Shown here: piece after piece, positions 47,170 through 64,000 of the stretch
Layout of the letters: every line of letters starts with the position of its first letter
Position numbering within the stretch: position 1 is the first letter of the stretch
Source: Candidatus Latescibacterota bacterium
GTDB lineage: Bacteria > Latescibacterota > UBA2968 > UBA8231
Length of the DNA: 64,000 bases
Assembly (NCBI GenBank): GCA_965197905.1
Contig: CBDAOB010000005.1
Location: forward strand, 192,001-256,000
Direction of reading: 5' to 3'
The notes under the pieces: model-generated
Seen by the model: only the letters and a program-made list of their open reading frames with translations
Told to the model about the DNA's origin: nothing
The model's database searches: none
Translations under genes and position numbers: made by a program

Positions 47170-47295
47170 GACTTTTCGTTGCGGTTGGGGTGAGACGAGA
47201 GTTGGCGGCACCTATAGTACGCGGGCCGCGACCCGGCTGCAAGCGGCGGTATTTACTTGAAAAAAGCGTCCAAACCGCATTCAATTATAGAGTCA

Positions 47296-47321
47296 GCTAT
47301 AGCGACAGCTGTCGCTATAGC
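47296..47321. repeat. Perfect 26-bp palindrome in a divergent promoter region
   Basis: GCTATAGCGACAGCTGTCGCTATAGC equals its own reverse complement. Confidence 0.9.
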
Positions 47322-47369
47322 CGGGATTACACAGGGCTCAAATTATTTGGTCTGAGGCCGACGAAAATT

Positions 47370-50300
47370 ATGATGCGTACTGTTGCGACATTGCTGCTGA
47401 TCCTCGCGGTCTCCAGCTCGGGGGTCAGTGCCTCCGACCTGTTCGAGATCGGGTCTGCCGAAACGGTTGCCGGAGGCGGGACCGGCACCGGCGGGCCCGC
47501 CCGGGCGGCGAGCCTTCTGCCGCTGGGCGTGGCGGCTGGTCCAGGCGACGAAGCCGATCGTCTCTACATCGCCGATTCCGGGAACGGGCGTATTCGCAGA
47601 TTGGACGCCGACGGCCGAATGCACACGGTTGCCGGCAACGGCTCGACCTTTCCTCTCGACGCAGGTGGGCCGGCGCTGGACACGGCACTCTTGATGCCGG
47701 TAGAGGTGAAGATCGATCACCGCGGCCGCTTGCTGATCGCCGACGGCGAGGCCAATCGGATATTCCGCATGGGCGAGGATGGTTTCCTGTCGGTGGTAGC
47801 CGGGAACGGATCGCGAGGCGCGGCCCAGGATGGCAGCCTCGCCGACGCAGCCGAACTGGGCCGGCCACTCGGCTTCGTGCCGGATGGCTCCGGCGGCGTG
47901 TTTATCTCGGACACCGAGAACCATCGGCTGCTGCATGCGGATCGAGAGGGGATTCTGCGGGTGCTGGCTTCGGGGTTCGTGCGTCCCGCACGTCTTTTCC
48001 TGGATGCGGACGGCGCGCTGCTGGTGGCCGAAGCGGGCCGCAACGAGATCAAACGCCTCACCGTCGATCGCCTGGTAGAACCGCCCCGCGAACGTGTAAC
48101 TGTTCCGCAAGGTTACGTGGTTCGCACTCTTGCCGCGCTGCCGGTTCCCAAGCTACTCGAAGTGGTATATCATCGGGATGAGGGGCGCATATACATCACC
48201 CATGCCCGCGGCATCGAATGGATGCAGGACGGGGGTCGGCGCAACGCGTTTGCAGAATTCCTTGTCCCCAGATACAGCAGCACGTCTGCCAGGTCCGGTC
48301 TGATTGTGGGCACCGCTTCCTTCATCGATTGGCCGCAACCGCTGACCAACATTCGCCCGGACGGGGAATTGAATCCGTTGTATCTGCCGGTGCCTCTGTC
48401 CTTTGCCGGCGCCGACGCGATCACCCGAGGGCAAGGAGGCAACCTCGGGAACGATCTTTTCGTCCACCACGTCCGCGGCGAGGTTACCAGGGTCGCCGAG
48501 AACGAGATCGCGGCGTGGCCCTTTGCGCTGATCGAGCCGGGGACCGCAAAGATCCAGGCAATACCAGACGGCAGTCTCTACGCCGTTCTGAGCCGATCCC
48601 GGAGCCTGTGGAGGCTGACCGATCAGGATGGCGACGGCGAGATTCTGGGGCGAGAGGCACGGGTAGTAGCCGCGTTCGACCGTGAACCGGTGGCGCTGGC
48701 TTACGACAACGGACTCTTTGCCGCCACCGGGGACGGCCGCATCTACCAGATCACCGAAGGTGGAGAGATCTCCCTCTTCGCCTCGGGGTTTGCGGAGGCA
48801 GTCATCGATATCAGTCCGGCCCCGGGCGGTGGGCTGCTGGTTCTGGAGGGTGACGCCCTTGCCGGCCGCCTGCTGCTCCTCTCTCCCCCGCAGCCGGTGG
48901 TGGCGAGCTGGCCCAGCCAGGTCGATTACGGCCGCGTTCAACTCGGGAATCCCGTCGCCGCCTCCCTCATCCTTCGCAACGAGGGAGACCGCGGTGTGGA
49001 GTTGACGGCTAGTCCAGGTCCTGGAGTGCACGTTGGTTCCGAGCGTATCGTGCTTGCCGCGGGGGAACACCGCTCCGTCACCGCCGAGCTTGCGCCCTGG
49101 ATCAAAGGGCCCAACGCCAGCTACCTGGAATTCTCCGACGGCGAGGGCCAGCTGTTGCTATCGGTGCCACTGCTCGCCGAGGGCATCGCCCCGCGCTTGA
49201 GGGTGACCCCCCGCGTCGACTTCGGCACGGTTCTCCTGGGATCCAGAGTGCGACGATCCCTGGTGCTGCACAACGATGGCGAAGCGGGACTGCTCGTACG
49301 GCTGCAGCTGGCACCCGACCACGGTTTCCAGACCGGTGCCGCCGAGTACCCCGAGATTCCTCCTGGATCCTCTCTGACCGTCGACATCAGCTGGTTGCCC
49401 GAGCAGCGTCGCGCACCCACCGGTCAGCTACTGATCTCGAGCAACGATCCGGATCATCCCACCAGGACAGTCGAGCTCTCCGGCTTCGGTGGGATTCCAC
49501 AGCTCCGGGGACTCCCTGAATCGATTCAACTCGGTGCGGTTAAGGTCGGGGAGACCGAGCGCCAGAAACTGGAGTTGAAGAACGAAGGCGAGATGGATCT
49601 GTGGATCACCCAGATCCTGACCGGGGAGCGCGAGCTGAGGGTATCCCCGAGTCATCTGCAGATACCGCCGGGTGAAACCCGGTTGTTAGAGCTCACCTAT
49701 CGGCCCCGCGCTCACGGTGCGCTGGCGGGTGAGTTCTTTCTGCGCACCACCGACCCGAAGCATCGCGAGGTTCGCGTCGATTACGCCGGGCGGGGGTTGA
49801 GCTCCTTCCTGGCGTTGCCGGCAGGACCTCTGCTGTTCGCCGCCACGGCGTTGGGCCAGGTCAGCGAGCTTTCGTTCCCAATATCCAATGAGAGTTCCGC
49901 AGCCATCGCGATCCGGCAGGTCCAGACCAACAGCACTCAGTACCGGGTCACCGGTTTTCCGTCACGTCTTGAACCGGGAGCCGCTGGGTCGGTCGATGTC
50001 GAGTTTCGACCCGTGCGCCTGGGAGATGTCAGCGGGGAATTGACCCTGACTACGGAAGGTGCCGCCACCGAAAACCTGCGTATCGATCTGCAGGGCCGCA
50101 GTCATCCCGGTTCGCAACTCTTCCTCGAATGGGAGGGACCGTCGGTGGCTCCTGGATCCGAGTTCGAGGTAGTTTTGACCCTCGCCCATGCGTATCGGCT
50201 GGTGGGCATGGTGATCGAGCTCTCCTTGCCTCTCGAGCAGGTAGAGTTTCTAGGGGTGCGGTGGCCACGCAACGGACTCTTCGGAGACGAGGAACCGCCA

Positions 50301-51011
50301 CTGGTGATTCACCAGCAGACAGGACCCGACCGGGTCGAGTTCGGATTCTCCCAGACCGGCGTATCAGCCTTCGACGGAGTCAGCGGCGGTGGCGAGCTGG
50401 GGCGCCTGCGATTTCGGCTGCGCCCGGGCGCGCATGGAAAAATCGAGATTCGGGTCCCAAGGGCCGTCTACCGCTCGTCACAGGGCCGCGCCGACGATCT
50501 GCCCCAGGACGCCCGCGTCTCCGTGCCCGTGTTGCGGACCGGCGATTTCGATGCGGACGGCCGCGTGGATTTCGATGACTTCCTGGTGCTGATGGACAAC
50601 CTGGGCACCGACTCGTTGCCAGGGATACAGATCTACGACCTGAACGGTGACGGACAGGTATCGTTGGACGACGTCTTCGTACTCTTCGCCAACATGGAAT
50701 CGGCCGCCAAGGCGCTGGCGCGGGAACAGTTGCCGCTGAGCTTCGGTCTGAACGCCTATCCCAATCCATTCAATGCCGAACTCGCGCTCGAGTATCGGCT
50801 GCCGGGTGAACAACAGGTTCAGCTGGTGATCTTCAACACCCTCGGCCAGCGAGTCCGTCACCTGGAATCGGGGCGGCGGCAGCGCGGCATTCACCAGGTC
50901 ACCTGGGACGGCCGTGACGACTCGGGACGGGAGGTAACCTCCGGTCTTTACATCGCCACCCTCCGCGGCACCCGGGAACGCATCAGCAGGCGGCTGCTTC
51001 TCGTTCGCTGA
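47370..51011 (+). CDS. Large secreted modular protein: NHL-type propellers, tandem Ig-like (choice-of-anchor D-type) domains, cohesin-like domain, EF-hand/dockerin-like pair, FlgD-Ig C-terminal domain
   Basis: Signal peptide; YIADSGNGRIR, TVAGNG; repeated DFG.V..L.N.G...L..SNDP; GDFDADGRVDFDDF and YDLNGDGQV; YPNPFN..WDGRDDSG..SGLY. Confidence 0.8.
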   Translation: MMRTVATLLLILAVSSSGVSASDLFEIGSAETVAGGGTGTGGPARAASLLPLGVAAGPGDEADRLYIADSGNGRIRRLDADGRMHTVAGNGSTFPLDAGGPALDTALLMPVEVKIDHRGRLLIADGEANRIFRMGEDGFLSVVAGNGSRGAAQDGSLADAAELGRPLGFVPDGSGGVFISDTENHRLLHADREGILRVLASGFVRPARLFLDADGALLVAEAGRNEIKRLTVDRLVEPPRERVTVPQGYVVRTLAALPVPKLLEVVYHRDEGRIYITHARGIEWMQDGGRRNAFAEFLVPRYSSTSARSGLIVGTASFIDWPQPLTNIRPDGELNPLYLPVPLSFAGADAITRGQGGNLGNDLFVHHVRGEVTRVAENEIAAWPFALIEPGTAKIQAIPDGSLYAVLSRSRSLWRLTDQDGDGEILGREARVVAAFDREPVALAYDNGLFAATGDGRIYQITEGGEISLFASGFAEAVIDISPAPGGGLLVLEGDALAGRLLLLSPPQPVVASWPSQVDYGRVQLGNPVAASLILRNEGDRGVELTASPGPGVHVGSERIVLAAGEHRSVTAELAPWIKGPNASYLEFSDGEGQLLLSVPLLAEGIAPRLRVTPRVDFGTVLLGSRVRRSLVLHNDGEAGLLVRLQLAPDHGFQTGAAEYPEIPPGSSLTVDISWLPEQRRAPTGQLLISSNDPDHPTRTVELSGFGGIPQLRGLPESIQLGAVKVGETERQKLELKNEGEMDLWITQILTGERELRVSPSHLQIPPGETRLLELTYRPRAHGALAGEFFLRTTDPKHREVRVDYAGRGLSSFLALPAGPLLFAATALGQVSELSFPISNESSAAIAIRQVQTNSTQYRVTGFPSRLEPGAAGSVDVEFRPVRLGDVSGELTLTTEGAATENLRIDLQGRSHPGSQLFLEWEGPSVAPGSEFEVVLTLAHAYRLVGMVIELSLPLEQVEFLGVRWPRNGLFGDEEPPLVIHQQTGPDRVEFGFSQTGVSAFDGVSGGGELGRLRFRLRPGAHGKIEIRVPRAVYRSSQGRADDLPQDARVSVPVLRTGDFDADGRVDFDDFLVLMDNLGTDSLPGIQIYDLNGDGQVSLDDVFVLFANMESAAKALAREQLPLSFGLNAYPNPFNAELALEYRLPGEQQVQLVIFNTLGQRVRHLESGRRQRGIHQVTWDGRDDSGREVTSGLYIATLRGTRERISRRLLLVR

Positions 51012-51017
51012 CGGCGC

Positions 51018-52175
51018 ATGCTTCGCACCATACCTATTCTGCTGCTGAGCGGACTCTGGTACACAGCCTGCAGTCCGGGGGGTTCCACCATCCAGACGGA
51101 ACACCTCGCGCCAGGTGTAGATCACCACGAGATCCATCTGCTCGCCGGCCCGTGGTGGATTCATGTCATCGAAGTCGACCTGAAACGGGCACTGCGCGAG
51201 GGCATTCGCCTGGAGACGGCAAAAGCCGATTATCGGCACGGCGGCTTTCAACGGACCAGCAGCATGGCCGCAGCGGCAATTGCCGCGGTCAACGGCGACT
51301 ACTTCTATCAGCGGGGCCGGCCGCTCGGGTTGCAGATACGCCGGGGGGAGCTGCTGCAGGAGCCCCACCGCTTTTCATCGGCCCTGGCCTTGAGTGCCGC
51401 CGGTGAACCCCTGGTTGCCGTGTTCAAGCTGCGGGCAGGTCTGATAACACCTCGCGGCCAGGTCGTCACTATTTCCGGATTGAACCGCGAGCCAGCCGCT
51501 GACGGATTGACCCTTTACAATCGTTTCGGCAAGGCGTGGCAAGATTCGGTGCGGGCCGAGCTCGGTTTCCAGATGCAGCAGACCGGATCCGGGTCACCTA
51601 TCAACGATACCCTGTCGCTGCGGGTTACCCAGGTGCGCAGGAAGGGCTGGCCCCTCCGACTGGAATCCGGGCAATGGTTGCTCGCCGCCGGCGCCGATCA
51701 CGGCATCGGCGAAATCATGGCTCCCGGAGATACCATCCAATTGTTCTGCAACCTGCCTCCCGCCGACGAGAGATTGGGCGAAGCGATCGGTGGAGGTCCG
51801 AGAATCATTCGCGATGGTTCGGTCTCCATCGAATACGTCGCCGAACATCTGGATCAAACCTTCGCAACGGCGCGGCATCCGCGGACCGCCGTCGCCTACT
51901 CCAGGTTGGGGCGCACCCTGTTTCTGGTGACCGTCGACGGACGTCAGCCCGGGTACAGCGTGGGAATGAGTCTGGAAGAGCTGGCTGATTTCCTGCGCCA
52001 TCGGCTAGCCGAGTTCACCAGCTCCCGATCGAACGCACACCAGGCTTTAAATCTCGACGGAGGGGGTGCGACGACGGTGGTCGTCAACGGGCAGGTGGCG
52101 AATCGACCCTCCGATCCTACCGGAGAACGTCCCGTAGCCAACGCACTGCTTATCGTCCGCGAATCGGAACTATGA
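51018..52175 (+). CDS. Phosphodiester glycosidase (NAGPA-like) family lipoprotein
   Basis: AVNGDYF, GGGP, RHPRTA, VDGRQ..S.G, NLDGGG. Confidence 0.88.
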   Translation: MLRTIPILLLSGLWYTACSPGGSTIQTEHLAPGVDHHEIHLLAGPWWIHVIEVDLKRALREGIRLETAKADYRHGGFQRTSSMAAAAIAAVNGDYFYQRGRPLGLQIRRGELLQEPHRFSSALALSAAGEPLVAVFKLRAGLITPRGQVVTISGLNREPAADGLTLYNRFGKAWQDSVRAELGFQMQQTGSGSPINDTLSLRVTQVRRKGWPLRLESGQWLLAAGADHGIGEIMAPGDTIQLFCNLPPADERLGEAIGGGPRIIRDGSVSIEYVAEHLDQTFATARHPRTAVAYSRLGRTLFLVTVDGRQPGYSVGMSLEELADFLRHRLAEFTSSRSNAHQALNLDGGGATTVVVNGQVANRPSDPTGERPVANALLIVRESEL

Positions 52176-52692: not shown

Positions 52693-53541
52693 TCAGACAG
52701 AGCCGTTGAAGGTTATCTCCGAGCCTTCTCTGGCGGCCTCAACTTGGAAGCTCTCCGAGCGATAGCGCCCAACGATTTCGTCGATACCGGCGTCGGTGCG
52801 GTTGGGGTGATGATGGAACAACAGCAGGTGGCGGACCTCCGCTTCCCGGGCAACCTCCACCGCATGGTGATCGGAGGAATGTCCCCAACCTCGATGGGTT
52901 TCGTACTCAGCACTGCTGAAATGGGCGTCGTGGAGCAGCAGGTCCGCCTGCCGCGCAAGGGCCAGGGCGGGTTCCCGGTGATCGTCCTCCAGATATTCAA
53001 CGTCGGGTAGGTAGGCGATGGCAACACCTCCACTCTCGATCCTGAACCCCAGACAAACCGTCCCGGCGGCGTGGTTGACCTCGCGCGACTCCACCTGGAA
53101 GTCCCCTATCCGCATCGATTCCGACTGGACCTCCTTCGCACCGACCTTCGCTCCTGTGTCGTCCTCGAAGAAATCCGGGACCGGGCAGTAGACCGCGGTC
53201 ATCTGCACCCGCAGCAAGTCGCCGATCGAACGTCCGGTGCTGCCCTTGCCCCAAAGCGTGAAGCGGTTGCCGGCAATCAAGAACGGCTTGAAGAATGGCA
53301 ACCCTTGAATATGACCCCAGTGGGTGTGACTGACCAGGACGTGGCCGCTGCCACCGCCGTCACCAAACGGGGAATCGATCAGGGCGTCGCCCAGAGCGGG
53401 CAATCCCGTACCGCCGTCGAGGATCAGGACGGATGTCGGATCCAGCTCGATCAGGACGCAAGGCGTATTGCCTCCGTACACGCCATGAAGAGAGGATGGG
53501 GTAGGAATCGAACCCCTCGTACCCCACAACCTTATCTTCAA
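52693..53541 (-). CDS. MBL-fold metallo-hydrolase (phosphodiesterase-like), variant metal motif
   Basis: WGTRGS, YGGNTPC, DGGTG, HTHWGHIQG, HDA, WGHS, LFHH. Confidence 0.88.
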   Translation of the reverse strand: MKIRLWGTRGSIPTPSSLHGVYGGNTPCVLIELDPTSVLILDGGTGLPALGDALIDSPFGDGGGSGHVLVSHTHWGHIQGLPFFKPFLIAGNRFTLWGKGSTGRSIGDLLRVQMTAVYCPVPDFFEDDTGAKVGAKEVQSESMRIGDFQVESREVNHAAGTVCLGFRIESGGVAIAYLPDVEYLEDDHREPALALARQADLLLHDAHFSSAEYETHRGWGHSSDHHAVEVAREAEVRHLLLFHHHPNRTDAGIDEIVGRYRSESFQVEAAREGSEITFNGSV

Positions 53542-53554
53542 TATCGGCTCTCTT

Positions 53555-54424
53555 TCACAGGTTCACTTCCAACCCTTCCATCGCCGCAACCAGCTCCAGC
53601 TGATTCGGAGATTCGGCTTTGTATCGGGCCAGGATCTCATCAATCGAGTCATCGCTGCGATCGGGCCGGTGGTGAAACAAGGCGACCCGCTTGGCGGCTG
53701 ATTCGACGCCAAGACGCAGGGCGTCTTCCGGCGTGCTGTGGCCAAAATCCGAGCGATACTCATCGGTAAGGAAATAAGTATCGCATACCATGAGATCAGA
53801 ACTGTGAGCTAGATCACGTGCGCCGCGACGTAGTTCCTCGATTCGTGACGATTTTTCCGGATCATCCGCCGGCATGTCGTCCCCCAGGAGCGTGTCGGTG
53901 TAGAGATCGGCGTCCGAAACATAGGAGAAGACCGAGTTACCGTTCTCGACTCGAAAACCGCCCGCAACCCCCGGGTGATTCAGGCGTTTACAGGTTACCC
54001 GGGTGGCGCCGACCTGGATGGTTTCTCCATCGGTGAGCTCGATAAACTCGAGCCGGGCTTTGACCTGATCGAGGGGTAGCGGAAAAAAGGGGGACTCCTG
54101 TTGAGCGCAGAAGATCTCCTTAAGGCTTTTCTGGCTGCGTCTCAGCGAGTAAACGTAGATCTGCGCAGAGGAGTCGAGCAGCGGACCGAAATGGGGGAAC
54201 CCCTGGATGTGATCCCAGTGGGTGTGACTGACCAACAAGTGTATGGTTGAAATCTTGCGACTCTGGAGGGACTTCCCAGCGGCGTATATCCCGGTTCCAG
54301 CATCGACGAGCAGGGTAGTGCCGTCGGCCTCGACTTCGAGACACGGGGTGTTGCCGCCGTACCGCAAGCAGTAGTCTGCCGCTACCGGATAGGAGCCGCG
54401 CACCCCCCAAAAGGTTACTTTCAT
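53555..54424 (-). CDS. MBL-fold metallo-hydrolase (phosphodiesterase-like)
   Basis: FWGVRGS, YGGNTPC, DAGTG, HTHWDHIQG, NHPG, FGHS, LFHH. Confidence 0.9.
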   Translation of the reverse strand: MKVTFWGVRGSYPVAADYCLRYGGNTPCLEVEADGTTLLVDAGTGIYAAGKSLQSRKISTIHLLVSHTHWDHIQGFPHFGPLLDSSAQIYVYSLRRSQKSLKEIFCAQQESPFFPLPLDQVKARLEFIELTDGETIQVGATRVTCKRLNHPGVAGGFRVENGNSVFSYVSDADLYTDTLLGDDMPADDPEKSSRIEELRRGARDLAHSSDLMVCDTYFLTDEYRSDFGHSTPEDALRLGVESAAKRVALFHHRPDRSDDSIDEILARYKAESPNQLELVAAMEGLEVNL

Positions 54425-54673
54425 GGTTGAATTTTGGGCGCGTGAAGGGGTCGAAAATAGTTCGTTATTTTCGTTATTATATGAAGGATGTTTAAAAACC
54501 ACAAGCATTTAGTTACATTTTTGGAGGTCTTTGAATCGGGCTAAAATAGGCAGTTTTGGAGGCGCGGAATGATGGGTTCCGCCGTCTGCGCAGATTTCAC
54601 ATAAGGTGGGATTTCCGTATATTTATTCCTCACCGAAAACCGAATCTACCGCACACCTGAACACAACCAGTGG

Positions 54674-55471
54674 GTGGCTACTATTTCGAAGAAAAAAAAA
54701 CCGAGAATTCGCGAAAAGAAACCACTGGGCGAGGAATCGAAGGACGGGGAGGCCGACCTCGACGAGTCAAGCAGCGGGCAACCGAAAACCGGCGTCCGCC
54801 AGTACCTCTCTTCGATTCTGATCGCCGTTGGCCTGGCGTTGCTCATCCGTACAACCGTCGTTCAGGCGTTTTTTATTCCTTCGGGCTCCATGGAGGACAC
54901 CCTCTATATCGGCGACTACCTGTTGGCTAACAAATTCGTCTATGGCGCACCGATCGACATCATCGGCACGAGTATCACTTTGTTTCGTTTGCCCGGGCTG
55001 CGCGACCCTAGTCCCGGGGATATCGTCATTTTTAGGTCTCCCATCGAGGAGGACAAGGACCTGATCAAGCGGTGCGTCGCCGTCGGGGGGCAACGGGTGG
55101 AGGTCGTCGGCAAGGAACTCTACGTCAACGGCAAGCGGTTTCCCGATCCACCCGGTGCGAAGTTCGTCAAAGGGGGCATGGACAGCTACGGCCCTATCGT
55201 CGTGCCGCAAGACCACTATTTCATGATGGGAGACAACCGCGACAACAGCCTCGACAGTCGCGTATTCGGTCCCGTTCCCAACGGACTGGTCAAGGGCAAA
55301 GCGATGAACGTTTATTGGTCTATAAAGCCGGACAAATGCACCCGCTTCAACAGGAACGATTGCACACCAAACTATTCCGGACTGTCTTCGCTGCCTAAGG
55401 TAGTTGGAAAGTTTCTCTGGCGCTTGCCTGGCCGCGTTCGCTATAGCCACCTGGGAGATGTCATCCTGTAA
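54674..55471 (+). CDS. lepB: Signal peptidase I
   Basis: TM helix then IPSGSM..TL..GD, IKR, GDNRDNSLDSR. Confidence 0.93.
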   Translation: MATISKKKKPRIREKKPLGEESKDGEADLDESSSGQPKTGVRQYLSSILIAVGLALLIRTTVVQAFFIPSGSMEDTLYIGDYLLANKFVYGAPIDIIGTSITLFRLPGLRDPSPGDIVIFRSPIEEDKDLIKRCVAVGGQRVEVVGKELYVNGKRFPDPPGAKFVKGGMDSYGPIVVPQDHYFMMGDNRDNSLDSRVFGPVPNGLVKGKAMNVYWSIKPDKCTRFNRNDCTPNYSGLSSLPKVVGKFLWRLPGRVRYSHLGDVIL

Positions 55472-55481
55472 CGGTACGATT

Positions 55482-57218
55482 ATGGAGAGAGACGACCTAC
55501 ACCACGATCCCGACGAAGAGCTCGAGGAGTACGACGACTACAGGGAGTACGAGGAAGATAACAGCCTGCAGGAGGAGTTCGACGCCGAGCCGTTGCGGTT
55601 GGTGGACAAGCTTCTGTCGCTGGCCCCCGAGAAGGATCCGGCTCGCCCCCTGCTGTACGGGTTGCGGCGCCAGCTCATGGAGCGCGAGATCACCTTCCAG
55701 GAGGCCCGTCGCAGCCTCGTGGAGCTGGAAGCAGCGCTGGAAAAGGTGACCTCCCCCTCCAATCGCGTCGGTATCTACCTTGGTTCGCCGAGAGACGAAA
55801 TCGCCACGGTTTTCGTGGGCGGTGCAGAATATTACGCCAACATCGATCCACGGGTGGATGTCGCCGACCTGGAGGTGGGGACGCGGATCTTGATCAACGA
55901 AGCGTACGCCGTCGTCGGCGTTCTAGGTTTCAATCCCGCCGGCCCGATCGCCAAGATCGGCGATCTCTTCGACGACGGACGACTGCGCCTTACTCAGGAA
56001 CACGGCTCCCAGGATCTGGTGGTGGAGCGCTCAGCTTCCCTGGCCGATGCGGATCTCAAGAAGGGAGACGAGGTCCGCGTGGATCCTGGATTCAAGGTGG
56101 CCCTCGAACGCATTGCCGCCGGCGATGGCAAGGAATACTTCCTCGAGAATGTGCCGGTCATGGACTGGTCCAGCATTGGCGGTCAGGAAGAGGCGATCCA
56201 GGCGATCCGCGACACCATCGAGCTGCCGGCGTTGCATCCGGAGCTGTTCGAGCGCTTCCAATACAGCACCCCGAAGGGGTTTCTGCTCTACGGCCCCCCC
56301 GGCTGCGGCAAGACCCTCATCGGCAAAGCGACCGCCTACAATCTGGTGCGCCACATCCGCGAGGCAGAAGGTGAGGATGTAAAAGAGTATTTCATGCACA
56401 TCAAGGGCCCCGAAATCCTCAACATGTGGCTCGGAGAAACCGAACGCATGGTGCGGGAGATCTTTGCCCAGGCCCGGGAGAAACGGAAGGAGGGGTTTCT
56501 ACCTTTCGTCTTCATCGACGAGGCGGAGTCAATTCTAGGCATCCGGCGCTCCATGAGGTCGCACCACATCGCCAACACTGTGGTGCCCATGTTCTGCACC
56601 GAAATGGACGGCATCGAGTCGTTACACGATGTCGTGATCATTCTCGCCTCCAACCGCCACGACCTGATCGATCCCGCCATTCTTCGGCCGGGCCGAATCG
56701 ACCGCAAGATCAAGGTGGAGCGTCCGGACAGGGACGCCTCAAGGGCGATTCTGGAAATCTACCTCACGTCCAATCTGCCTCTAGATCTCGAGGAATCGAA
56801 GGCGTTCGAGAACCCCGAGGCGGCCCGCCAGGCGTTGATCGACGCGACGGTCGATCATTTCTTCGCGCGGGACGAAGAGACCAAGTTTCTCGAGGTCACG
56901 CTGCGCAGCGGCCGAGTAGAGGTCCTGAACTTTTGCGATCTCTCAAGCGGGGCCATCATCGACTCGATGGTGCAGCGCGCCAAGGAAACCGCGGTCAAAC
57001 GGGCCATCGCCAGCAAGGATGCCGACGCCGGTTTGCGCCGCGAGGATCTCATGCAGGCGGTGCGTGCCGAATTCCGCGAAAGCGAAGTATTCCCCCCCAC
57101 GGACACGGTCGAAGACTGGCTCAAGCTACTCGACTACGATCCGGACAATGTGGTACGGGTCCTGCCCGTACGATCCCAGGAAAAGACAGCGGACACCCCA
57201 GCCAGCAAGGTCATCTGA
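55482..57218 (+). CDS. arc: Proteasome-associated AAA+ ATPase (ARC/Mpa family)
   Basis: Coiled coil and OB domains; GPPGCGKT, IKGPEILNMWLGETER, FIDE, SNR.DLIDPAILRPGRIDRKI; SGAII; operon context. Confidence 0.92.
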   Translation: MERDDLHHDPDEELEEYDDYREYEEDNSLQEEFDAEPLRLVDKLLSLAPEKDPARPLLYGLRRQLMEREITFQEARRSLVELEAALEKVTSPSNRVGIYLGSPRDEIATVFVGGAEYYANIDPRVDVADLEVGTRILINEAYAVVGVLGFNPAGPIAKIGDLFDDGRLRLTQEHGSQDLVVERSASLADADLKKGDEVRVDPGFKVALERIAAGDGKEYFLENVPVMDWSSIGGQEEAIQAIRDTIELPALHPELFERFQYSTPKGFLLYGPPGCGKTLIGKATAYNLVRHIREAEGEDVKEYFMHIKGPEILNMWLGETERMVREIFAQAREKRKEGFLPFVFIDEAESILGIRRSMRSHHIANTVVPMFCTEMDGIESLHDVVIILASNRHDLIDPAILRPGRIDRKIKVERPDRDASRAILEIYLTSNLPLDLEESKAFENPEAARQALIDATVDHFFARDEETKFLEVTLRSGRVEVLNFCDLSSGAIIDSMVQRAKETAVKRAIASKDADAGLRREDLMQAVRAEFRESEVFPPTDTVEDWLKLLDYDPDNVVRVLPVRSQEKTADTPASKVI

Positions 57219-57232
57219 GCTCTGAGCGTTCG

Positions 57233-58759
57233 ATGAACCGACTCGTGGGGCTGGAAACCGAATACGGCATCCAGGTGGATGACGTGGAGGAGATGGACGT
57301 GGTGGTGGAGTCCATGGAGCTGATCCGCTGTTTCCTCCACGAGGAATTCGTCGCCCGCTGGGACTACGCCCGTGAGAATCCGCGCCAGGACATGCGTGGG
57401 TTCGAGGTAGACGAGCTGCTCAATGACGTGGATGAGACCGTCCATCTCCAGCGCGATCGCAAACGGCAGATTCCGCTGAAAGAGCTCAAGAGCGACCTCA
57501 TTATTCGCAACGGGGCGCGGCTCTACAACGATCACACTCACCCCGAATACTCAACCCCCGAGTGCCTGTCGCTGATCGATCTAGCCACCTACGACCGCGC
57601 CGGCGAACAGATCCTGAACGGGTGTGCCAAACAACGCACCGCAACCCGGGATGGGGGAGTGGTCCGGCTCTACAAGAACAACACCGACTTCGAGGGACAT
57701 AGCTACGGGTGTCACGAAAACTACCTGATCGGGCGGGCGATCCCCTTCCAGCAGGTCATCGACGGCTTGCTGCCGTTCGTGGTTACCCGTCCGATCTTTG
57801 CCGGCGCCGGCAAGGTGGGCGTCGAAAACGTTACCGGCGGCTCGCTGCAGCCCTACCAGCTGTCCCAGCGCGCCGATTTCTTCGAGACGATCGCCAGTGT
57901 CGACACCATGCACCGACGTCCGCTGGTGAATACCCGCGATGAACCCCACGCCGACCGAAACCGTTACCGCCGCCTGCATATGATCACCGGCGATGCCAAC
58001 ATGTCCGAGTACATCACCGCTCTGAAGGTGGGAACGATGGGGTTGGTTCTGGAGCTGTTGGAGGCCGGAAAGTTGCCGTCCTACGAGCTCGCGGATCCGA
58101 TCGGGGCGCACAAGGAGATCTCCCGCGATCTCTCTAGGGCTTGGCCGGTCCAGCTCACCGATCGCTCTTTTACCACCGCCCTGGAGATTCAGCACGCCTT
58201 GCAGAAAGCGGCTCTCTCGTGCTTCGCGGGCAGGGACGAGGAGACCGATTGGGCCCTGGCTCAGTGGGGGCAGGTGCTGGACGATCTCGGGGGCGATCTT
58301 GCACCGCTGATCGGCCGCTGTGACTGGGTGACCAAGAAGTGGCTGCTCGACGCTTTCGTCGAGGCGGAGGGTTTGGACTGGGGGAACCCCGATCACCGGA
58401 CCTGGCTGCAAAGCCAGGACCTGGAATACCATAATATCGATCCGGAAGAAGGCCTCTTCCTCATGCTGGAACAACAGGGAGAGGTTGTTCGCCTGACGGA
58501 AGAAGGAGGTATCCTCAGGGCGACTGTGGAACCGCCGGCAGGTACCCGGGCCTATTTTCGCGGTGTCTGCCTCACCCGATTTGCGGAAAAAATCACCGCC
58601 TTGAACTGGGACAGCATCGAATTCGACCTGGACGCCGGTCGCTGGGTGCTCGATCTGAAAGATTGCGTGGATGCGGAAACGGCGGCTTATTATAATGAGA
58701 GTTTGGACCAGGTAGACAGCGTCGAGGCATTAAGGTCCAAACTCGAGCGTGCCGATTAA
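57233..58759 (+). CDS. dop: Deamidase/depupylase Dop-like (PafA2 family)
   Basis: GLETEYGI, WDY..ENP..D.RGF, NGARLYNDHTHPEYSTPEC, KNNTD..SYGCHENY, NTRDEPHAD, DLEYH. Confidence 0.88.
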   Translation: MNRLVGLETEYGIQVDDVEEMDVVVESMELIRCFLHEEFVARWDYARENPRQDMRGFEVDELLNDVDETVHLQRDRKRQIPLKELKSDLIIRNGARLYNDHTHPEYSTPECLSLIDLATYDRAGEQILNGCAKQRTATRDGGVVRLYKNNTDFEGHSYGCHENYLIGRAIPFQQVIDGLLPFVVTRPIFAGAGKVGVENVTGGSLQPYQLSQRADFFETIASVDTMHRRPLVNTRDEPHADRNRYRRLHMITGDANMSEYITALKVGTMGLVLELLEAGKLPSYELADPIGAHKEISRDLSRAWPVQLTDRSFTTALEIQHALQKAALSCFAGRDEETDWALAQWGQVLDDLGGDLAPLIGRCDWVTKKWLLDAFVEAEGLDWGNPDHRTWLQSQDLEYHNIDPEEGLFLMLEQQGEVVRLTEEGGILRATVEPPAGTRAYFRGVCLTRFAEKITALNWDSIEFDLDAGRWVLDLKDCVDAETAAYYNESLDQVDSVEALRSKLERAD

Positions 58760-58776
58760 CTAGATAGGAGGGCGCT

Positions 58777-58974
58777 ATGATAGACAAAAACATAGAGTTA
58801 CGGGATCGCGCTCCGCGGCCGACGAAACCACTCGGCGGTGGTGACGACGCCGACCAGGACGACGGTCCCCGACGGCCCAAGGTCGAACGCCCGCAAACCG
58901 ATGACATCTTGCGCCGTATGCGGCGAGTGGATCCGAATCAGGCCAGACGGTATCGCCAGCGAACCGGTCAGTAG
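58777..58974 (+). CDS. ubact: Ubiquitin-like modifier UBact
   Basis: 65-aa disordered-looking protein, AGGAGG RBS, C-terminus LRRMRRVDPNQARRYRQRTGQ; sits between dop and prcB. Confidence 0.9.
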   Translation: MIDKNIELRDRAPRPTKPLGGGDDADQDDGPRRPKVERPQTDDILRRMRRVDPNQARRYRQRTGQ

Positions 58975-58975
58975 C

Positions 58976-59752
58976 GTGGAGAGTTGCGATTTTCTGTCTC
59001 TGCTCAAAGAGCAGGGACATCTTCCCCGCGATCCAGTCCCCGCGGGGCCCCACGGAGCCGAGTTCGACACCACCGAAGGCACGACGATCCTGGCGATCAG
59101 ATACCGAGAGGGAGTTCTCATAGCCGGAGATCGCAGAGCCACCATGGGCAATACCGTCGTCTATGACCGGGCCGACAAGGTCCTGTCCATCGACGACGAC
59201 GCGGTGATGGCGCTCGCCGGGTCGCCGGCAATCGCCTACGAAATGGCGCGTCTCCTCGAAATCTCCTTTCAACATTATCGCCGAAGTCAGCTCCAGGTTC
59301 TCAGCCTCGATGGCAAACTGCGCATCCTGTCCCGCCTGCTGCGTGACAATCTTTCGCTGGCGCTGCAGGGCATTGGCGCCGTGGTTCCCATTTTCGCGGC
59401 GTTCGACATCCACGCAAACGAAGGCAAGATCTATTTCTACGATGTGCTCGGGGCGCAGTTCGAATCGGTGGATTTCTGCACCATCGGGTCCGGATCCCCC
59501 ATCATCCGCGGCGCCCTCTACCATCATAACCGCTGGCAGGATCGTCTGGCGGAGATGGACGAATCCGCCTCTCTGGAACTGGTGTTGAAGATGCTGGAAA
59601 CCGCCGCCGAGTTCGACACAGCCACCGGCGGACTGAACACCCGGTCCCGCATCTTTCCGCAAGTTCGGCGCATCACCGCCGCCGGTATCGAGACCGTTGC
59701 CGAAGACGTTCTCGAGTCCCTGTACCACTCTGAACTCCAGCCTCAAACCTGA
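58976..59752 (+). CDS. prcB: 20S proteasome beta subunit
   Basis: Propeptide then EG/TTILA (Thr1 codon at 59081), AGDRRAT, K33-equivalent DK, GSGS, D.ATGG. Confidence 0.9.
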   Translation: MESCDFLSLLKEQGHLPRDPVPAGPHGAEFDTTEGTTILAIRYREGVLIAGDRRATMGNTVVYDRADKVLSIDDDAVMALAGSPAIAYEMARLLEISFQHYRRSQLQVLSLDGKLRILSRLLRDNLSLALQGIGAVVPIFAAFDIHANEGKIYFYDVLGAQFESVDFCTIGSGSPIIRGALYHHNRWQDRLAEMDESASLELVLKMLETAAEFDTATGGLNTRSRIFPQVRRITAAGIETVAEDVLESLYHSELQPQT

Positions 59753-59860
59753 CCTCGGGGTTCTCTGATGGGATCCAGCTCCTTATCCATGCCCGGGTCT
59801 CGCCCGGCGCCGGCGCCGGCGCCGCCGGCGACCCAATGCTAGCGAGCGCGCGGAGATATC

Positions 59861-60619
59861 ATGCTTGAAGAGCCCTACCGCTGGGTCGAAGCGATACAGA
59901 ATCGCCGCGAATATCTGGATGATCAGCTGCGGGGTGCCAGTCCGGTGGTCGGCCTTTCTTACGAGCATGGGATCCTGCTGCTGACCACCACACCCGGTCC
60001 ACGTAAGCTGTTCGAGGTCTACAACGACCTGAGCTTCGCCGCGATCGGCCATCCCGCCGATATCGAAAAGCTGCGCAAGGCGGTCATCGACATCGCCCAT
60101 CTGGAGGCGTTCAACTTCTCGGCCAAGGACGTCTCGCTTCAGCGGCTGGTAAGTTTCGGCATCGGCCCGCTGGTCAAAGCGGCCTTCGACGAGATCTTCC
60201 GCTCCCCGTTTACCGCCCGGGTGCTCATGGCGGAACTGGATCCCCAGACTGGCCGCGATCGGTTTTTCGTGATCGACGCGGATGGATCCTTCCTGGGTCA
60301 CGAGCAAGAGGCAGCGGTAGCCGGATCCGACGCCAGCGTGGACGCCATATTGGAATCACTAGGTAACGGGGGTGCTGCCGCGTGGTCGCGGACCGAGGCG
60401 CTGCATGCCGGTTTACAGGCATGGGCAGCCGGTCGCCTCAATCTCGAAAGCGAATCCACAACCCTCCCAGACCAGGGGGCGGTTGAAGCCTGTTTGCGTG
60501 AAGTGCTGGAATCCCAACGGATCGAAGTGGCGGTACTCGACCGTACCCGACCGGGCAAAAGCAAGTTCACGCTTCTATCCAACGAAGAAATCGACGCCGC
60601 CCTGGCGCCGTACCGGTAG
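59861..60619 (+). CDS. prcA: 20S proteasome alpha subunit
   Basis: EPY, RKLFEVYN, AIG..ADIE.LR, EVAVLDR; operon context. Confidence 0.88.
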   Translation: MLEEPYRWVEAIQNRREYLDDQLRGASPVVGLSYEHGILLLTTTPGPRKLFEVYNDLSFAAIGHPADIEKLRKAVIDIAHLEAFNFSAKDVSLQRLVSFGIGPLVKAAFDEIFRSPFTARVLMAELDPQTGRDRFFVIDADGSFLGHEQEAAVAGSDASVDAILESLGNGGAAAWSRTEALHAGLQAWAAGRLNLESESTTLPDQGAVEACLREVLESQRIEVAVLDRTRPGKSKFTLLSNEEIDAALAPYR

Positions 60620-60627
60620 CAGACAAG

Positions 60628-62049
60628 ATGGACGAGCGCATCTTCGGAATCGAAGTGGAATTCGGATGTCTACCGCCCGACGCCGACCCGTTTTTGAGCC
60701 CGGACTTCATCTCGGTCAAGGCGAAGGACTGCATCTTCTACCGCGAGGGATTGGGAATCGTTGATATTCATTACCGTGGAAGGGACGAACCCCCGGGCAA
60801 TGGAGGGTTTCTGTTCAACGGCGGGCGGATCTACATCGACATGGGGCACGTCGAATACGCCACGCCCGAATGCCAGGGTCTGTTCGATCTGGTAGCGGCA
60901 GATCGGGCCGGCGAAATCATCGTTCAACGGGCGCTTGAGCAACTCGGTCTCGCCGAAACGGCTTCCTTCTTCAAGAACAACATCGATCATTACACCGGCG
61001 CCACCTTCGGTTGTCACGAAAACTATCTTGTGCGCCGCGACGTGCCGTTTTCCCAGGTTCTGTTGCCCGCCATGCTGCCGTTTTTCGTTACCCGACAGAT
61101 TTTCGCGGGTGCCGGTCGCGTTGGTTGTCACACGGACATCTTCGAATATGGAGGCAATGAGGAGGAGGGGGTCGCGTATCAGCTTTCTCAGCGCGCCGAC
61201 CACATCGTAACCGAGATCTATCAGTGGATCCAGTTCAGTCGGGCGATCATAAACACCCGTGACGAGCCGCTGGCTGATTGGGGGCTCTACCGCCGACTGC
61301 ACCTTCTGGTTGGCGACTCGAACATGTCCGAGTACGCCACCGCGCTCAAGGTCGGCACAACGGCGCTGATTCTGCGGTTGATCGAGGAGCGGGTGGTTCC
61401 GCCCATATCCCTGTTGGACCCCGTCCAGGCCATTCGCGACATCTCCCGCGATCTCAACTTCCGCTGGGAGGTGCAGCTCGAGGACGGCAGCTACACGACG
61501 GCGACCGAGATTCAGCGCGCCTATCTGGATCTGGCTGAACGCTATCTGCGCGGCAAGGACCCCGAGGGCGACTGGGTCCTGGACGAATGGCGGTTCGTCG
61601 TCGACGGCCTCGATTTCGACCCCATGAGCCTCATCGACCGAGTGGACTGGGTTACCAAGAAGTGGCTGCTGGAATCCTTCATGCGTTCCGAGGACCTGGA
61701 GTGGAACGACCCGGCGATCCAGAGCCTCGATCTTGAATACCACAACCTCAATATGGACCGGGGTCTCTACTTCGACCTGCGGCGCCGCGGCATGACCAAA
61801 CGCGTGGTCGACGACGACCAGGTGAACATGGCGCTGGTCACGCCGCCGCAGGACACCCGGGCAAAGGCGCGGTCAGTGGTGATGCGCGAGCTCACCGGTC
61901 AGAAAGCCCGCTACGTGATCGATTGGGACTCGATTTACGTCGAAGATGAGAAGTATCTCAGCCTGGATGATCCTTTTCTGGTGTACGACATCGAAACCCG
62001 GGAGTTCATCGACGACTGCCGCAACGGGGCGCCCCCAGAGGCATATTAG
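60628..62049 (+). CDS. pafA: Pup/UBact-protein ligase PafA-like
   Basis: RIFGIEVEFG, FLFNGGRIYIDMGHVEYATPEC, GCHENY, SQRADH, RAIINTRDEP, GDSNMSE, PPQDTRA. Confidence 0.88.
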   Translation: MDERIFGIEVEFGCLPPDADPFLSPDFISVKAKDCIFYREGLGIVDIHYRGRDEPPGNGGFLFNGGRIYIDMGHVEYATPECQGLFDLVAADRAGEIIVQRALEQLGLAETASFFKNNIDHYTGATFGCHENYLVRRDVPFSQVLLPAMLPFFVTRQIFAGAGRVGCHTDIFEYGGNEEEGVAYQLSQRADHIVTEIYQWIQFSRAIINTRDEPLADWGLYRRLHLLVGDSNMSEYATALKVGTTALILRLIEERVVPPISLLDPVQAIRDISRDLNFRWEVQLEDGSYTTATEIQRAYLDLAERYLRGKDPEGDWVLDEWRFVVDGLDFDPMSLIDRVDWVTKKWLLESFMRSEDLEWNDPAIQSLDLEYHNLNMDRGLYFDLRRRGMTKRVVDDDQVNMALVTPPQDTRAKARSVVMRELTGQKARYVIDWDSIYVEDEKYLSLDDPFLVYDIETREFIDDCRNGAPPEAY

Positions 62050-62133: not shown

Positions 62134-62571
62134 ATGCCTCTGCCAATGGCGGCGGCCGGCAAGGATGTATATGCGCCGGCCGAGTCCCGCTTGCGCACTC
62201 AGTCCAAACCGGTCGGACTGGGCCCACAAAGGCTCAATAGCGGCGTGGGAATCGACCCGCTCAGGGCGACCTCAAGTCCGGTCACGAGCTCCCAATCGCT
62301 GCTGGCTGAACCCCCTCCCGCCGGGCAGCAACTCATCGATATGCTCCGCGGTTCCGCCCGCGACAGCAGCTCCTTTACGGCATCGCTGGGATCCGGCCCT
62401 GCAGGAACGACCTCCCTGGGGGTTCTGCAGGCACGGATTTCGAGAGCTCGAAGTCAGTGGCGCGAGATAGATAGCAAGGCCCGTTTCCTGCTGGCCAGTC
62501 GCGGAGATGTCCGCTCCAACGCCTGGTTCAAGGCGCCCATTCCGCAGGTAAAAATCGACTTGACCGGCTGA
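62134..62571 (+). CDS. Hypothetical protein (S/A/P-rich)
   Basis: AAGGAG RBS; fills the gap between pafA and the next gene; ends KIDLTG. Confidence 0.55.
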   Translation: MPLPMAAAGKDVYAPAESRLRTQSKPVGLGPQRLNSGVGIDPLRATSSPVTSSQSLLAEPPPAGQQLIDMLRGSARDSSSFTASLGSGPAGTTSLGVLQARISRARSQWREIDSKARFLLASRGDVRSNAWFKAPIPQVKIDLTG

Positions 62572-62583
62572 GGCCGCCCGCAT

Positions 62584-64000
62584 TTGTTCCAGGTTTCTCC
62601 GTCCGTAGTATCCCGCCCTACCTTCCTAGTCATTCTTGTTTTCCTGATTGTTTCTTTTGCCGTTGTCCGCGCCGATGAGTTTGTATGCGCCGGGACGTTG
62701 CCGGCGTCGGTGAAACCCCTGGCGCAATCCTCGGGTACCCTGAACGCCCTGGTTGTGTTCGCCAAGTTCCAGGGGGAAGCAGCCGGCGACGATGCGGCGC
62801 CGGCATGGGCCGTGGATCTCTTCAATCCCGGACTGCCGGGCAGTTTCGCCCATTTCTACGACGAGGCTTCCCGTGGCCTTCTGCTGGTCCGTGGCTCGGT
62901 AGTACCGAAACGCTACAGCTCACTGCGGCCGGCTTCCGACTACGTCGCTGAGCGCTCGGGAGTTCAGGGTCGCTTCGGTCAGTTCAACCTCGAAATCCTC
63001 GAGCAGATGGACCCCGATGTCGACCTCGGTCTGTTCGACAACGACGGTGGTGATGGGGTGCCGAATTCTGGGGACGATGATGGCTATGTGGACGTGGTCT
63101 TCGTCAATCTATTGACCGTGCCGCAGAATTTCTTCATCTCCGGCGCGACCGGTTTTGCCTCGCTGGGGCTGGATACCGATTTCATCAGCGACGATGCCGC
63201 CGCCGGCGGTGGACGGATTCGGATTCGCAGTCGTTTCAGCGGCTTCGGTGGCACCACCCAACGCGGTCATGTTTTCTCGGTCACCGCATCCACCATGTGT
63301 CACGAATTCGGCCACGTGCTCGGCTTGCCCGACCTGTTCGATCAGTCATCCGTCTCCATGGGCGATGAGCTCGATCCCGAGCAGGACAGCGCCGGCATCG
63401 GGAAATGGGGACTGATGGGTCTCGGTACGTTGGGATGGGGGATCGAGGACGGTCCAAACGCCTTCTCAGCCTGGTCGCTGGCGCAGTTGGGTTGGGTCGA
63501 GGTGGTGGAGATCAGCAGGAGTCGTCCTGGTCTGGTCATCGAAGACATCGATGCCGGCGGCGTGGTCTACAAGATCCCGATCGGATACGACGAGTACCTG
63601 CTGCTGGAGAATCGCCAAGCCTCGGAATCGTATTACAACCGCAATGTGCCGGGAACGGGGCTGCTGGTCTGGCATGTGGACGACCAGGCGGACAACGACG
63701 AGGAGCGCCACAAGCAGGTCGACCTGGTCTGCGCGGATGGTCTCTACAGCGATCGCGGTTTCCCGGGGTCGCTGCCCGATCCGCGGGCCGGCCGCGACAA
63801 CCTCGACTTCTGGTCCCGCGACACTGCTTACGCGGAGGCGCGCAACGGCAATCAAGGTGATGCAACGGATCCGTTCGACGGGGTGGAGCGGACCCGCCTT
63901 GCGTTCGACACCAATCCGGCGGTCGGTGCCCACACCGGATTCAGGCGCGATTTGCCGCTGGGCATTGTGCTGGAGAAGATTCGCTCGCAGGGCTCAAACC
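62584..64000 (+). CDS. M6 family (immune inhibitor A-like) secreted metalloprotease, 3' end outside window
   Basis: Open frame from TTG 62584 to the window end (absent from the ORF track): signal peptide, ALVVFAKF, FDNDG.DG.PNSGDDDGYVD, CHEFGHVLGLPDL, GIGKWGLMG, EYLLLENRQ, GLLVWHVD. Confidence 0.88.
   Translation, partial: MFQVSPSVVSRPTFLVILVFLIVSFAVVRADEFVCAGTLPASVKPLAQSSGTLNALVVFAKFQGEAAGDDAAPAWAVDLFNPGLPGSFAHFYDEASRGLLLVRGSVVPKRYSSLRPASDYVAERSGVQGRFGQFNLEILEQMDPDVDLGLFDNDGGDGVPNSGDDDGYVDVVFVNLLTVPQNFFISGATGFASLGLDTDFISDDAAAGGGRIRIRSRFSGFGGTTQRGHVFSVTASTMCHEFGHVLGLPDLFDQSSVSMGDELDPEQDSAGIGKWGLMGLGTLGWGIEDGPNAFSAWSLAQLGWVEVVEISRSRPGLVIEDIDAGGVVYKIPIGYDEYLLLENRQASESYYNRNVPGTGLLVWHVDDQADNDEERHKQVDLVCADGLYSDRGFPGSLPDPRAGRDNLDFWSRDTAYAEARNGNQGDATDPFDGVERTRLAFDTNPAVGAHTGFRRDLPLGIVLEKIRSQGSN

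What the first reader, a model, noticed from the sequence alone, without database searches (positions are those of the whole stretch)
55482..62049. Complete UBact-proteasome system in a diderm bacterium
Seen: arc, dop, a 65-aa modifier ending RYRQRTGQ, prcB with a G/TT autocleavage site, prcA and pafA in one run. Established: this parallels actinobacterial pupylation. UBact is a distinct modifier recognised bioinformatically in several Gram-negative and candidate phyla, so the system type is not new. To my knowledge its conjugation and substrates remain little tested, and this locus offers every part needed for reconstitution.
Basis: partly seen in the sequence, partly recalled or inferred. 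Interest (0 to 1): 0.72.

Follow-up and report, generated by a model that had tools for sequence, protein, structure and literature searches.

The report
UBact tag-and-proteasome operon, Latescibacterota
This is an intact copy of an already described six-gene bacterial cluster that likely tags proteins with a small protein (UBact) and destroys them in a proteasome; the cluster is ordinary, but its positively charged tag is predicted to bind a negatively charged groove on its ligase-like enzyme, the reverse of the well-studied Pup system.

Summary
Observation confirmed: arc-dop-ubact-prcB-prcA-pafA lie intact on the + strand at 55482-62049. The 65-aa modifier passes the UBact cut-offs (PF20513, NF033388) and has no Pup hit. 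The nearest relatives are Latescibacterota. UBact occurs in 125 of 131 other genomes of the class, and 71 of 80 related loci keep all six genes in order. The system type has been in print since 2008/2017, and this scan has reported it repeatedly on other DNA.

Differences from actinobacterial pupylation, tested here:
- ARC lacks the penultimate Tyr (0 of 71 relatives). PrcA keeps the pocket Lys but not the Arg26 equivalent.
- The tag is basic and the groove of both enzymes is acidic. A UBact-PafA complex model scored 0.86 against a best control of 0.00.
- The PafA-like enzyme belongs to a subfamily I did not find in the published Dop/PafA alignment.

An apparent independent origin of this ligase weakened on testing: the tree signal sits in the tag-binding groove. 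I found no experimental UBact study, and conjugation and expression are untested. Verdict: an ordinary new member of a known, biochemically untested system.

The parts
55482..57218 (+). arc/mpa: proteasomal AAA ATPase, 578 aa. N-terminal helices, two OB domains, Walker A GPPGCGKT, Walker B FIDE, pore loop NMWLG, beta-grasp hairpin LRSGR. Ends PASKVI with no GQYL/HbYX.
57233..58759 (+). dop: deamidase/depupylase-type enzyme, 508 aa. GLETE motif, full Dop-loop with W43, D100-H101 (Acidothermus D94-H95), TRAYFRG.
58777..58974 (+). ubact: 65-aa modifier, basic C-terminal half (net +5 over the last 26 aa), ends GQ.
58976..59752 (+). prcB: 20S beta subunit, 258 aa. GTG start, 35-aa propeptide, Thr1 = T36, Asp17 = D52, Lys33 = K68.
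59861..60619 (+). prcA: 20S alpha subunit, 252 aa. N-terminus EEPYRW; K49 (= Lys52 of the mycobacterial subunit) kept; Arg26 position is G25.
60628..62049 (+). pafA-like: predicted UBact ligase, 473 aa. GIEVE, D71, PafA-type F37/F61/A78/H192/S204/D432 and C-terminal DPF; short insert aligned to the start of the Dop-loop; alpha-loop VTEIYQWIQFSR without the two Thr; acidic tag groove.
54674..55471 (+). lepB signal peptidase I, 10 nt upstream of arc; likely a co-transcribed passenger, not a core part.
   Evidence: present in 51 of 80 related loci

Best explanation
The six genes form a UBact conjugation-proteasome operon that likely marks proteins with UBact and degrades them, working like actinobacterial pupylation with a re-tuned set of interfaces. 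Steps. (1) Dop would deamidate UBact-GQ to GE and remove the tag from substrates (inferred; catalytic residues shown). (2) The last gene would phosphorylate the terminal Glu side chain with ATP and join it to substrate lysines (inferred). UBact residues 40-65 are predicted to lie in the tag groove and reach the active site. The basic tag and acidic groove are shown in sequence. (3) ARC would capture the tag, unfold the substrate and feed the 20S particle (inferred). (4) PrcB would self-cleave at G/T36 to free Thr1 (motif shown). (5) ARC would dock through its free C-terminal carboxylate on PrcA K49 and an aliphatic V-I tail in a pocket without the Tyr-binding Arg, helped by a basic hairpin against the H0 helix (sequence shown, docking inferred). 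Substrates are not identifiable here; general regulated proteolysis alongside HslUV is the likeliest role.
For: UBact models pass their cut-offs; no Pup, Bpa or PAC2 match in the 91%-complete genome (the Bpa search had no positive control). One ubact, two Pup-ligase-family genes and one arc, all in this operon. Order kept in 71 of 80 loci. The terminal residue varies only between Q and E (29) in 76 tags, as expected of a deamidated donor. Active-site residues are near-invariant: PafA E9/E11/D71 79 of 80, H130/R211/R223/H225 80 of 80; Dop E8/E10/D100/H101 72 of 72; PrcB T36 and D52 77 of 77, K68 76 of 77. Complex model of PafA with UBact 26-65: score 0.86, best of 3 controls 0.00, runs agree in at least 93% of contacts, partner pLDDT at least 69; the mark was reached by 116 of 157 solved and 2 of 215 mismatched pairs, counts that hold only roughly with my own alignments. 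Net charge over the 18 predicted groove columns: -2 to -7 in 25 of 25 UBact-type enzymes, -1 to +3 in 15 of 15 actinobacterial-type enzymes. The last 26 residues of UBact are +2 to +6 in 105 of 105 tags, against -9 for the last 30 of one Pup. ARC penultimate Tyr in 0 of 71 and 0 of 14 metagenome operons, while the Nonomuraea control ends GQYL. PrcA K49 in 79 of 79 and 34 of 34.
Against: No biochemical or expression data. The complex pass may come from likeness to the solved PafA-Pup and Dop-Pup structures (4BJR and 7OXY rank 1-4). The ligase lacks the alpha-loop threonines whose loss slows PafA (PMC7947786, passage), has 3 Dop-type and only 6 PafA-type discriminating positions, and scores higher against Dop chains. 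Its model is low-confidence at the alpha-loop (pLDDT under 50 at 190-216). The ARC helices at 36-92 are near neutral in both systems, so charge inversion is not seen at the ATPase. PrcA position 24, next to the lost Arg, is Arg/Lys in 38 of 79 and 29 of 34 and might replace it. ARC-PrcA docking was not modelled. The Pup charge comparison rests on one Pup sequence.
Confidence: 0.82

Rival explanations
1. The UBact ligase arose separately from actinobacterial PafA, by an own duplication of Dop in the Latescibacterota/Verrucomicrobiota/Armatimonadota type of system, so ligase activity evolved twice.
For: On 36 proteins the UBact ligase and UBact Dop groups sit on one side of a branch with 100/99 support (FastTree on 82 rows agrees). 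AU test against orthology p = 0.046. The ligase keeps a conserved insert (DxHxRxx[DE]EP[PA]GN) aligned to the start of the Dop-loop.
Against: With 40 proteins and both termini included, the two topologies cannot be told apart (p-AU 0.27). Neither half alone rejects either topology. The 18 predicted groove columns carry +15.9 log-likelihood units of the signal (0 of 20000 random column sets as high), and without the 37 interface columns orthology is slightly preferred (p-AU 0.36 for the rival). The C-terminal domain is PafA-like. Rows were picked by likeness to the window's protein, and most 'actinobacterial-type' rows are unnamed and grouped by motif.
Confidence: 0.2
2. The last gene is not a protein ligase but a second hydrolase or an enzyme with a narrow acceptor, so UBact is not conjugated broadly, or acts as a non-covalent adaptor for ARC.
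For: It scores higher against Dop structures than PafA structures. The alpha-loop is unlike either enzyme and lacks the two Thr. It retains a Dop-loop-like stub. In at least 8 soil-metagenome loci a close homologue stands alone, without the other five genes.
Against: It lacks the full Dop-loop and the Dop His next to the catalytic Asp, and has PafA-type F37, F61, A78, H192, S204, D432 and DPF. R211, the counterpart of the substrate-recognition Arg (PMC10465538, passages), is in 80 of 80. It is the only other family member in the genome. The terminal G[QE] is strictly kept.
Confidence: 0.1
3. Tagging works but is uncoupled from the 20S particle: ARC, lacking the Tyr motif, only unfolds or disassembles tagged proteins, as in corynebacteria (recalled), and the proteasome is opened by something else.
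For: No GQYL/HbYX in 0 of 71 plus 0 of 14 ARC tails, and the tail is about 7 residues shorter than in Nonomuraea. The Tyr-Arg26 contact is needed for gate opening by PafE (bioRxiv 10.1101/249060, passages).
Against: arc and prcBA stay in one operon in 71 of 80 loci. The tail always ends in aliphatic residues. The carboxylate-binding Lys is invariant (113 of 113 PrcA rows over, with a few loci counted twice). No Bpa match was found (without a positive control).
Confidence: 0.12

Closest known systems
UBact conjugation-proteasome loci of Gram-negative and candidate phyla (Pfam PF20513, NCBIfam NF033388; Lehmann et al. 2017 BBRC 483:946, seen only as a reference-list entry in PMC12751074, content recalled; Iyer et al. 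2008, PMC2588565, passages)
   Same: The modifier passes both UBact models. Same gene set and order, G[QE] end, two Pup-ligase-family paralogues and linked proteasome genes. Iyer et al. already list such loci in verrucomicrobia and nitrospirae. By recollection, Handelsmanbacteria are among Lehmann's phyla; a record so titled is among the relatives (L091).
   Different: No difference in architecture. The groove charge, ligase alpha-loop, Dop-loop stub and Tyr-free tail were not found in the papers I could search, but the 2017 paper itself was not readable.
Actinobacterial Pup-proteasome system (Mpa/ARC, Dop, Pup, PrcB, PrcA, PafA; PDB 4BJR, 4B0R, 5LRT, 7PX9, 1Q5Q)
   Same: Same gene order as Nonomuraea. 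Homologous enzymes with the catalytic residues kept, the same fold, a Thr1 protease with propeptide, and the pocket Lys.
   Different: The tag is basic and has no Pup hit. The enzyme groove is acidic. ARC ends KVI rather than GQYL, and its hairpin is RSGR rather than ANGDK. PrcA lacks Arg26 and has a different N-terminus. The ligase alpha-loop lacks TT. All five proteins are below their NCBIfam cut-offs. No Bpa or PAC2 match.
Nitrospira/Leptospirillum PafA and Dop in the alignment of Hecht et al. 2021 (PMC7947786)
   Same: Non-actinobacterial Pup-ligase pairs.
   Different: Their PafA has the actinobacterial TT alpha-loop (supplement part 2). The supplement holds none of the motifs WIQF, WVQF, QFSR, QFNR, NDHT, NDHA or NDHG (a motif split by a gap or line end would be missed), so the window's enzyme pair seems not to be in that tree.

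Membership tests
UBact-proteasome system | Small modifier matching the UBact models and ending G[QE] | tested here: met
   PF20513 73.1/27.8 and NF033388 73.9/35; ends TGQ
UBact-proteasome system | Modifier gene between dop and prcB in an arc-dop-ubact-prcB-prcA-pafA locus | tested here: met
   71 of 80 relatives
UBact-proteasome system | Non-actinobacterial, Gram-negative-type host | tested here: met
   Nearest relatives (97% PafA identity) are titled Latescibacterota; envelope type from established knowledge
UBact-proteasome system | Covalent conjugation to lysines and proteasomal degradation | not testable with these tools
   No experiment possible; no such study found
Actinobacterial Pup-proteasome system | Modifier of the Pup family (PF05639), acidic, ending GG[QE] | tested here: not met
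   No Pup hit on the ORF or in the genome; control C. glutamicum passes; tag is basic and ends TGQ
Actinobacterial Pup-proteasome system | ATPase C-terminal GQYL motif with penultimate Tyr, and PrcA Arg26 | tested here: not met
   ARC ends KVI; Tyr in 0 of 71 and 0 of 14; PrcA G25, Arg in 0 of 79 and 2 of 34
Dop (deamidase/depupylase) | GhExE, catalytic Asp-His, Dop-loop with Trp, TRAYFRG | tested here: met
   TIGR03688 427 bits is below its 492 cut-off
PafA (Pup ligase) | No full Dop-loop, catalytic Asp, PafA-type C-terminal domain (xDW, DPF) | tested here: met
PafA (Pup ligase) | PafA-specific residues and alpha-loop (WEGVSSATTRSR); orthology with actinobacterial PafA | tested here: inconclusive
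   6 PafA-type, 3 Dop-type, the rest neither or shared (read by eye); trees undecided
20S proteasome beta subunit | Propeptide, Gly-1/Thr1, Asp17, Lys33, GSG | tested here: met

The most novel reading that the evidence does not exclude
UBact operons of the Latescibacterota/Verrucomicrobiota/Armatimonadota type are a second, Pup-orthogonal tagging machine: a basic tag read by an acidic groove, a ligase invented independently from Dop that still carries a Dop-loop stub and a Thr-free alpha-loop, and a proteasome opened by a tyrosine-free aliphatic tail. Orthogonality to Pup alone (about 0.6) and Tyr-free gating alone (about 0.65) are likelier than the full package with an independent ligase origin.
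Probability: 0.2. Interest if true: 0.62.

Novelty: new member of a known kind. Interest (0 to 1): 0.32.

Why it matters
As a locus it adds little: it is one of more than a hundred copies in its class and is already named by Pfam and NCBIfam. What stays open is the whole UBact class, for which I found no biochemical study in the searchable library. The comparisons here give that class testable predictions: tag and groove with reversed charge (so likely no cross-talk with Pup, which would make a second tag for PafA-based proximity labelling), gate opening without the HbYX/GQYL tyrosine, and a ligase subfamily with a different alpha-loop. Any UBact locus, including ones from cultured phyla, could serve for these tests.

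Tried and rejected
Independent origin of the ligase: strong in the first trees, borderline by AU, not significant in halves or with wider sampling, and reversed once interface columns were dropped. Kept only as a rival.

Charge inversion at the ARC coiled coil: not seen, residues 36-92 are near neutral.

Second modifier or accessory factors in the genome: no Pup, no PAC2 (97), no Bpa (44, nothing rang in the controls, so weak). A faint second UBact hit has two stops and is below cut-off. The third PF00227 hit is HslV beside HslU, read by eye.

Expression: no RNA holder listed.

Promoter and terminator scan: counts equal to shuffles.

AlphaFold model of the ligase: low confidence at the active-site loops, uninformative on the alpha-loop (81). 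Its fold search does not separate PafA from Dop.

The 2017 UBact paper is not held. Literature searches listed no experimental UBact paper, but subscription journals are mostly outside the library, and bioRxiv supplements were closed.

One search used an out-of-frame Dop query; one search corrected it.

lepB as a functional partner: not supported, since it is absent from the other families' loci.
Full report
OBSERVATION. On the + strand lie arc (55482-57218), dop (57233-58759), ubact (58777-58974), prcB (58976-59752), prcA (59861-60619) and pafA (60628-62049), with gaps of 14, 17, 1, 108 and 8 nt and no internal stops. The 65-aa ORF passes the UBact cut-offs of Pfam (73.1 vs 27.8 bits) and NCBIfam (73.9 vs 35) and has no Pup hit. 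The other five proteins match the Pup-ligase, proteasome and proteasomal-ATPase families but fall below the NCBIfam cut-offs. PrcB starts at a GTG one base after the ubact stop; relatives start in the same region with similar MESCDFL propeptides. T36 and D52 (Thr1, Asp17) are in 77 of 77 relatives and K68 (Lys33) in 76 of 77.

CONTEXT. The nearest relatives are titled Candidatus Latescibacterota. Pup-ligase genes occur in 128 of 131 other genomes of the class and UBact in 125 of 131; both occur in 2 of 36 genomes of other classes (kin are not independent). Of 80 related loci, 71 carry all six genes in order, and the other 9 are short upstream. The own genome (91% complete) has one ubact, two Pup-ligase genes and one arc, all here; no Pup or PAC2 match; no Bpa match (uncontrolled); and a separate HslVU. 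The tag ends RYRQRTGQ in 47 and RYRQRTGE in 29 of 76 loci.

THE TWO ENZYMES. The first has the Dop-loop with W43, D100-H101 and TRAYFRG, matching Acidothermus W47, D94 and H95 (PMC8599861, passages). The second lacks the full loop. Against the table of discriminating positions in Hecht et al. (PMC7947786, section 6), read by eye, it has six PafA-type residues (F37, F61, A78, H192, S204, D432), three Dop-type states (no Val insertion, P80, E196), one shared position, and neither type at the rest. Its alpha-loop VTEIYQWIQFSR lacks the two threonines (W200 and I201 in 80 of 80). It carries a conserved insert aligned to the start of the Dop-loop and a PafA-type C-terminal domain. Related ligases are named from Verrucomicrobiota and a related Dop from Armatimonadota. 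The Nitrospira and Leptospirillum PafA in Hecht's supplement are of the actinobacterial type, and the motifs of this subfamily were not found there.

TREES. From the 150 representatives I kept those of 420-620 aa and chose subsets by motif. UBact-type ligase and Dop joined against the actinobacterial-type pair in an 82-row FastTree and a 36-row mixture-model tree (100/99), with AU p = 0.046 against orthology. This did not hold up. The halves were undecided. A 40-row set with both termini gave p-AU 0.27, with residues 211-390 favouring the by-system grouping and the termini and alpha-loop favouring orthology. Only Nonomuraea is a named actinobacterial row.

TAG AND GROOVE. A complex prediction of the ligase with UBact 26-65 scored 0.86 (best of 3 controls 0.00; runs agree in at least 93% of contacts; partner pLDDT at least 69; mark reached by 116 of 157 solved and 2 of 215 mismatched pairs, roughly applicable with my alignments). 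It placed UBact 40-65 on ligase residues 347-387 and on the active site (11, 71-74, 120-128). Like complexes are solved (4BJR, 7OXY), so this shows likeness, not binding. The 18 groove columns carry +15.9 log-likelihood units of the by-system signal (0 of 20000 random sets as high), and dropping the 37 interface columns tips the trees slightly towards orthology. Those columns are net -2 to -7 in 25 of 25 UBact-type enzymes and -1 to +3 in 15 of 15 actinobacterial-type ones. The tag's last 26 residues are +2 to +6 in 105 of 105 (some loci counted twice), against -9 for the last 30 of one Pup. The simplest reading is co-adaptation of both enzymes to a basic tag. The same inversion was not seen in the ARC helices.

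DOCKING. In mycobacteria the activator's Tyr contacts PrcA R26 and its carboxylate K52 (bioRxiv 10.1101/249060, passages), and Mpa also uses an ANGDK hairpin on the H0 helices (PMC8755798, section 8). Here ARC ends KVI. The penultimate residue is Tyr in 0 of 71 related loci and 0 of 14 complete metagenome operons found with an alpha-loop pattern (one further terminus, from a broken arc, was set aside). Nonomuraea ends GQYL. PrcA keeps the Lys (79 of 79; 34 of 34) but has Arg at the 26-equivalent in 0 of 79 and 2 of 34. The neighbouring position is often basic and could compensate. The Glu119-equivalent is never acidic and the Asp144-equivalent is invariant; their roles are recalled, not read. 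The hairpin is RSGR. Tyr-free docking on the retained Lys is inferred, not modelled. Earlier scan notes (e1-9594527, e1-1434466) raised this on other DNA; I tested it again here.

WHAT IS KNOWN. Iyer et al. 2008 (PMC2588565, passages) reported such modifiers with two PafA paralogues and proteasome genes in verrucomicrobia and nitrospirae. Lehmann et al. 2017 named UBact; I saw only its citation (not held), and its phylum list is recalled. Searches (listings and abstract starts) showed no experimental UBact study. Also read as passages: PMC8142254, PMC10465538, PMC11354881, PMC8223512, PMC7203096 (no hit in the held part) and bioRxiv 10.1101/2023.01.18.524605. This scan has reported UBact operons on other DNA several times.

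VERDICT. A real, intact, ordinary member of the UBact-proteasome class that likely works like pupylation (confidence about 0.8) and fails membership of the actinobacterial Pup system on its tag and docking motif. The class-wide differences (reversed tag-groove charge, Tyr-free tail, distinct ligase subfamily) are worth testing but do not single out this locus. Interest 0.32.

Noticed in passing
window 54674-55471 (+): Signal peptidase I ends 10 nt before arc. It is present in 51 of 80 related loci but absent from the more distant (62-65% identity) group; a second lepB lies elsewhere in the genome.
   Followed up: partly
L131, L138, L171, L177, L179, L180, L188, L204: A close homologue of the UBact ligase (alpha-loop VNDIYQWVQFNR) stands alone with unrelated neighbours in metagenome contigs. 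An earlier scan note describes a split Udaeobacter-like system whose pafA was not found; these may be that gene.
   Followed up: partly
L121:5202-7094 and L122:5918-7810: Two genes that look like a DNA methyltransferase (SPPY motif, read by eye) and a partner are inserted between dop and ubact. L121 also has a partial second copy of the ubact 3' end.
   Followed up: no
L120 and L119: In L120 arc is split, and prcB is separated from prcA, by transposase-like ORFs. In the sister genome L119, two or three unrelated genes sit between prcA and pafA.
   Followed up: no
window 59483-59485 (PrcB residue 170): Ile before the GSG motif where 77 of 77 relatives have Thr. Contigs of runs X1 and X2 list no other letter there.
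   Followed up: partly
window 52693-54508 (-): Two tandem metallo-beta-lactamase-fold hydrolases, best matched to RNase Z and cyclic-nucleotide phosphodiesterase models below cut-off, divergent from lepB.
   Followed up: no
window 47190-52175 (+): A 1273-aa secreted-type protein (NHL, ASH/Ig, EF-hand, FlgD/T9SS-like tail) followed by a NAGPA-family phosphodiester glycosidase.
   Followed up: no
window 62134-64000 (+): An unexamined 145-aa ORF and an M6-family metalloprotease follow pafA.
   Followed up: no
window 59800-59830: A short run of CCGGCG repeats in the 108-nt gap between prcB and prcA.
   Followed up: no
G094, G109, G155: Three genomes of the same family, 90-98% complete, lack both Pup-ligase and UBact matches, which may be losses or assembly gaps.
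   Followed up: no
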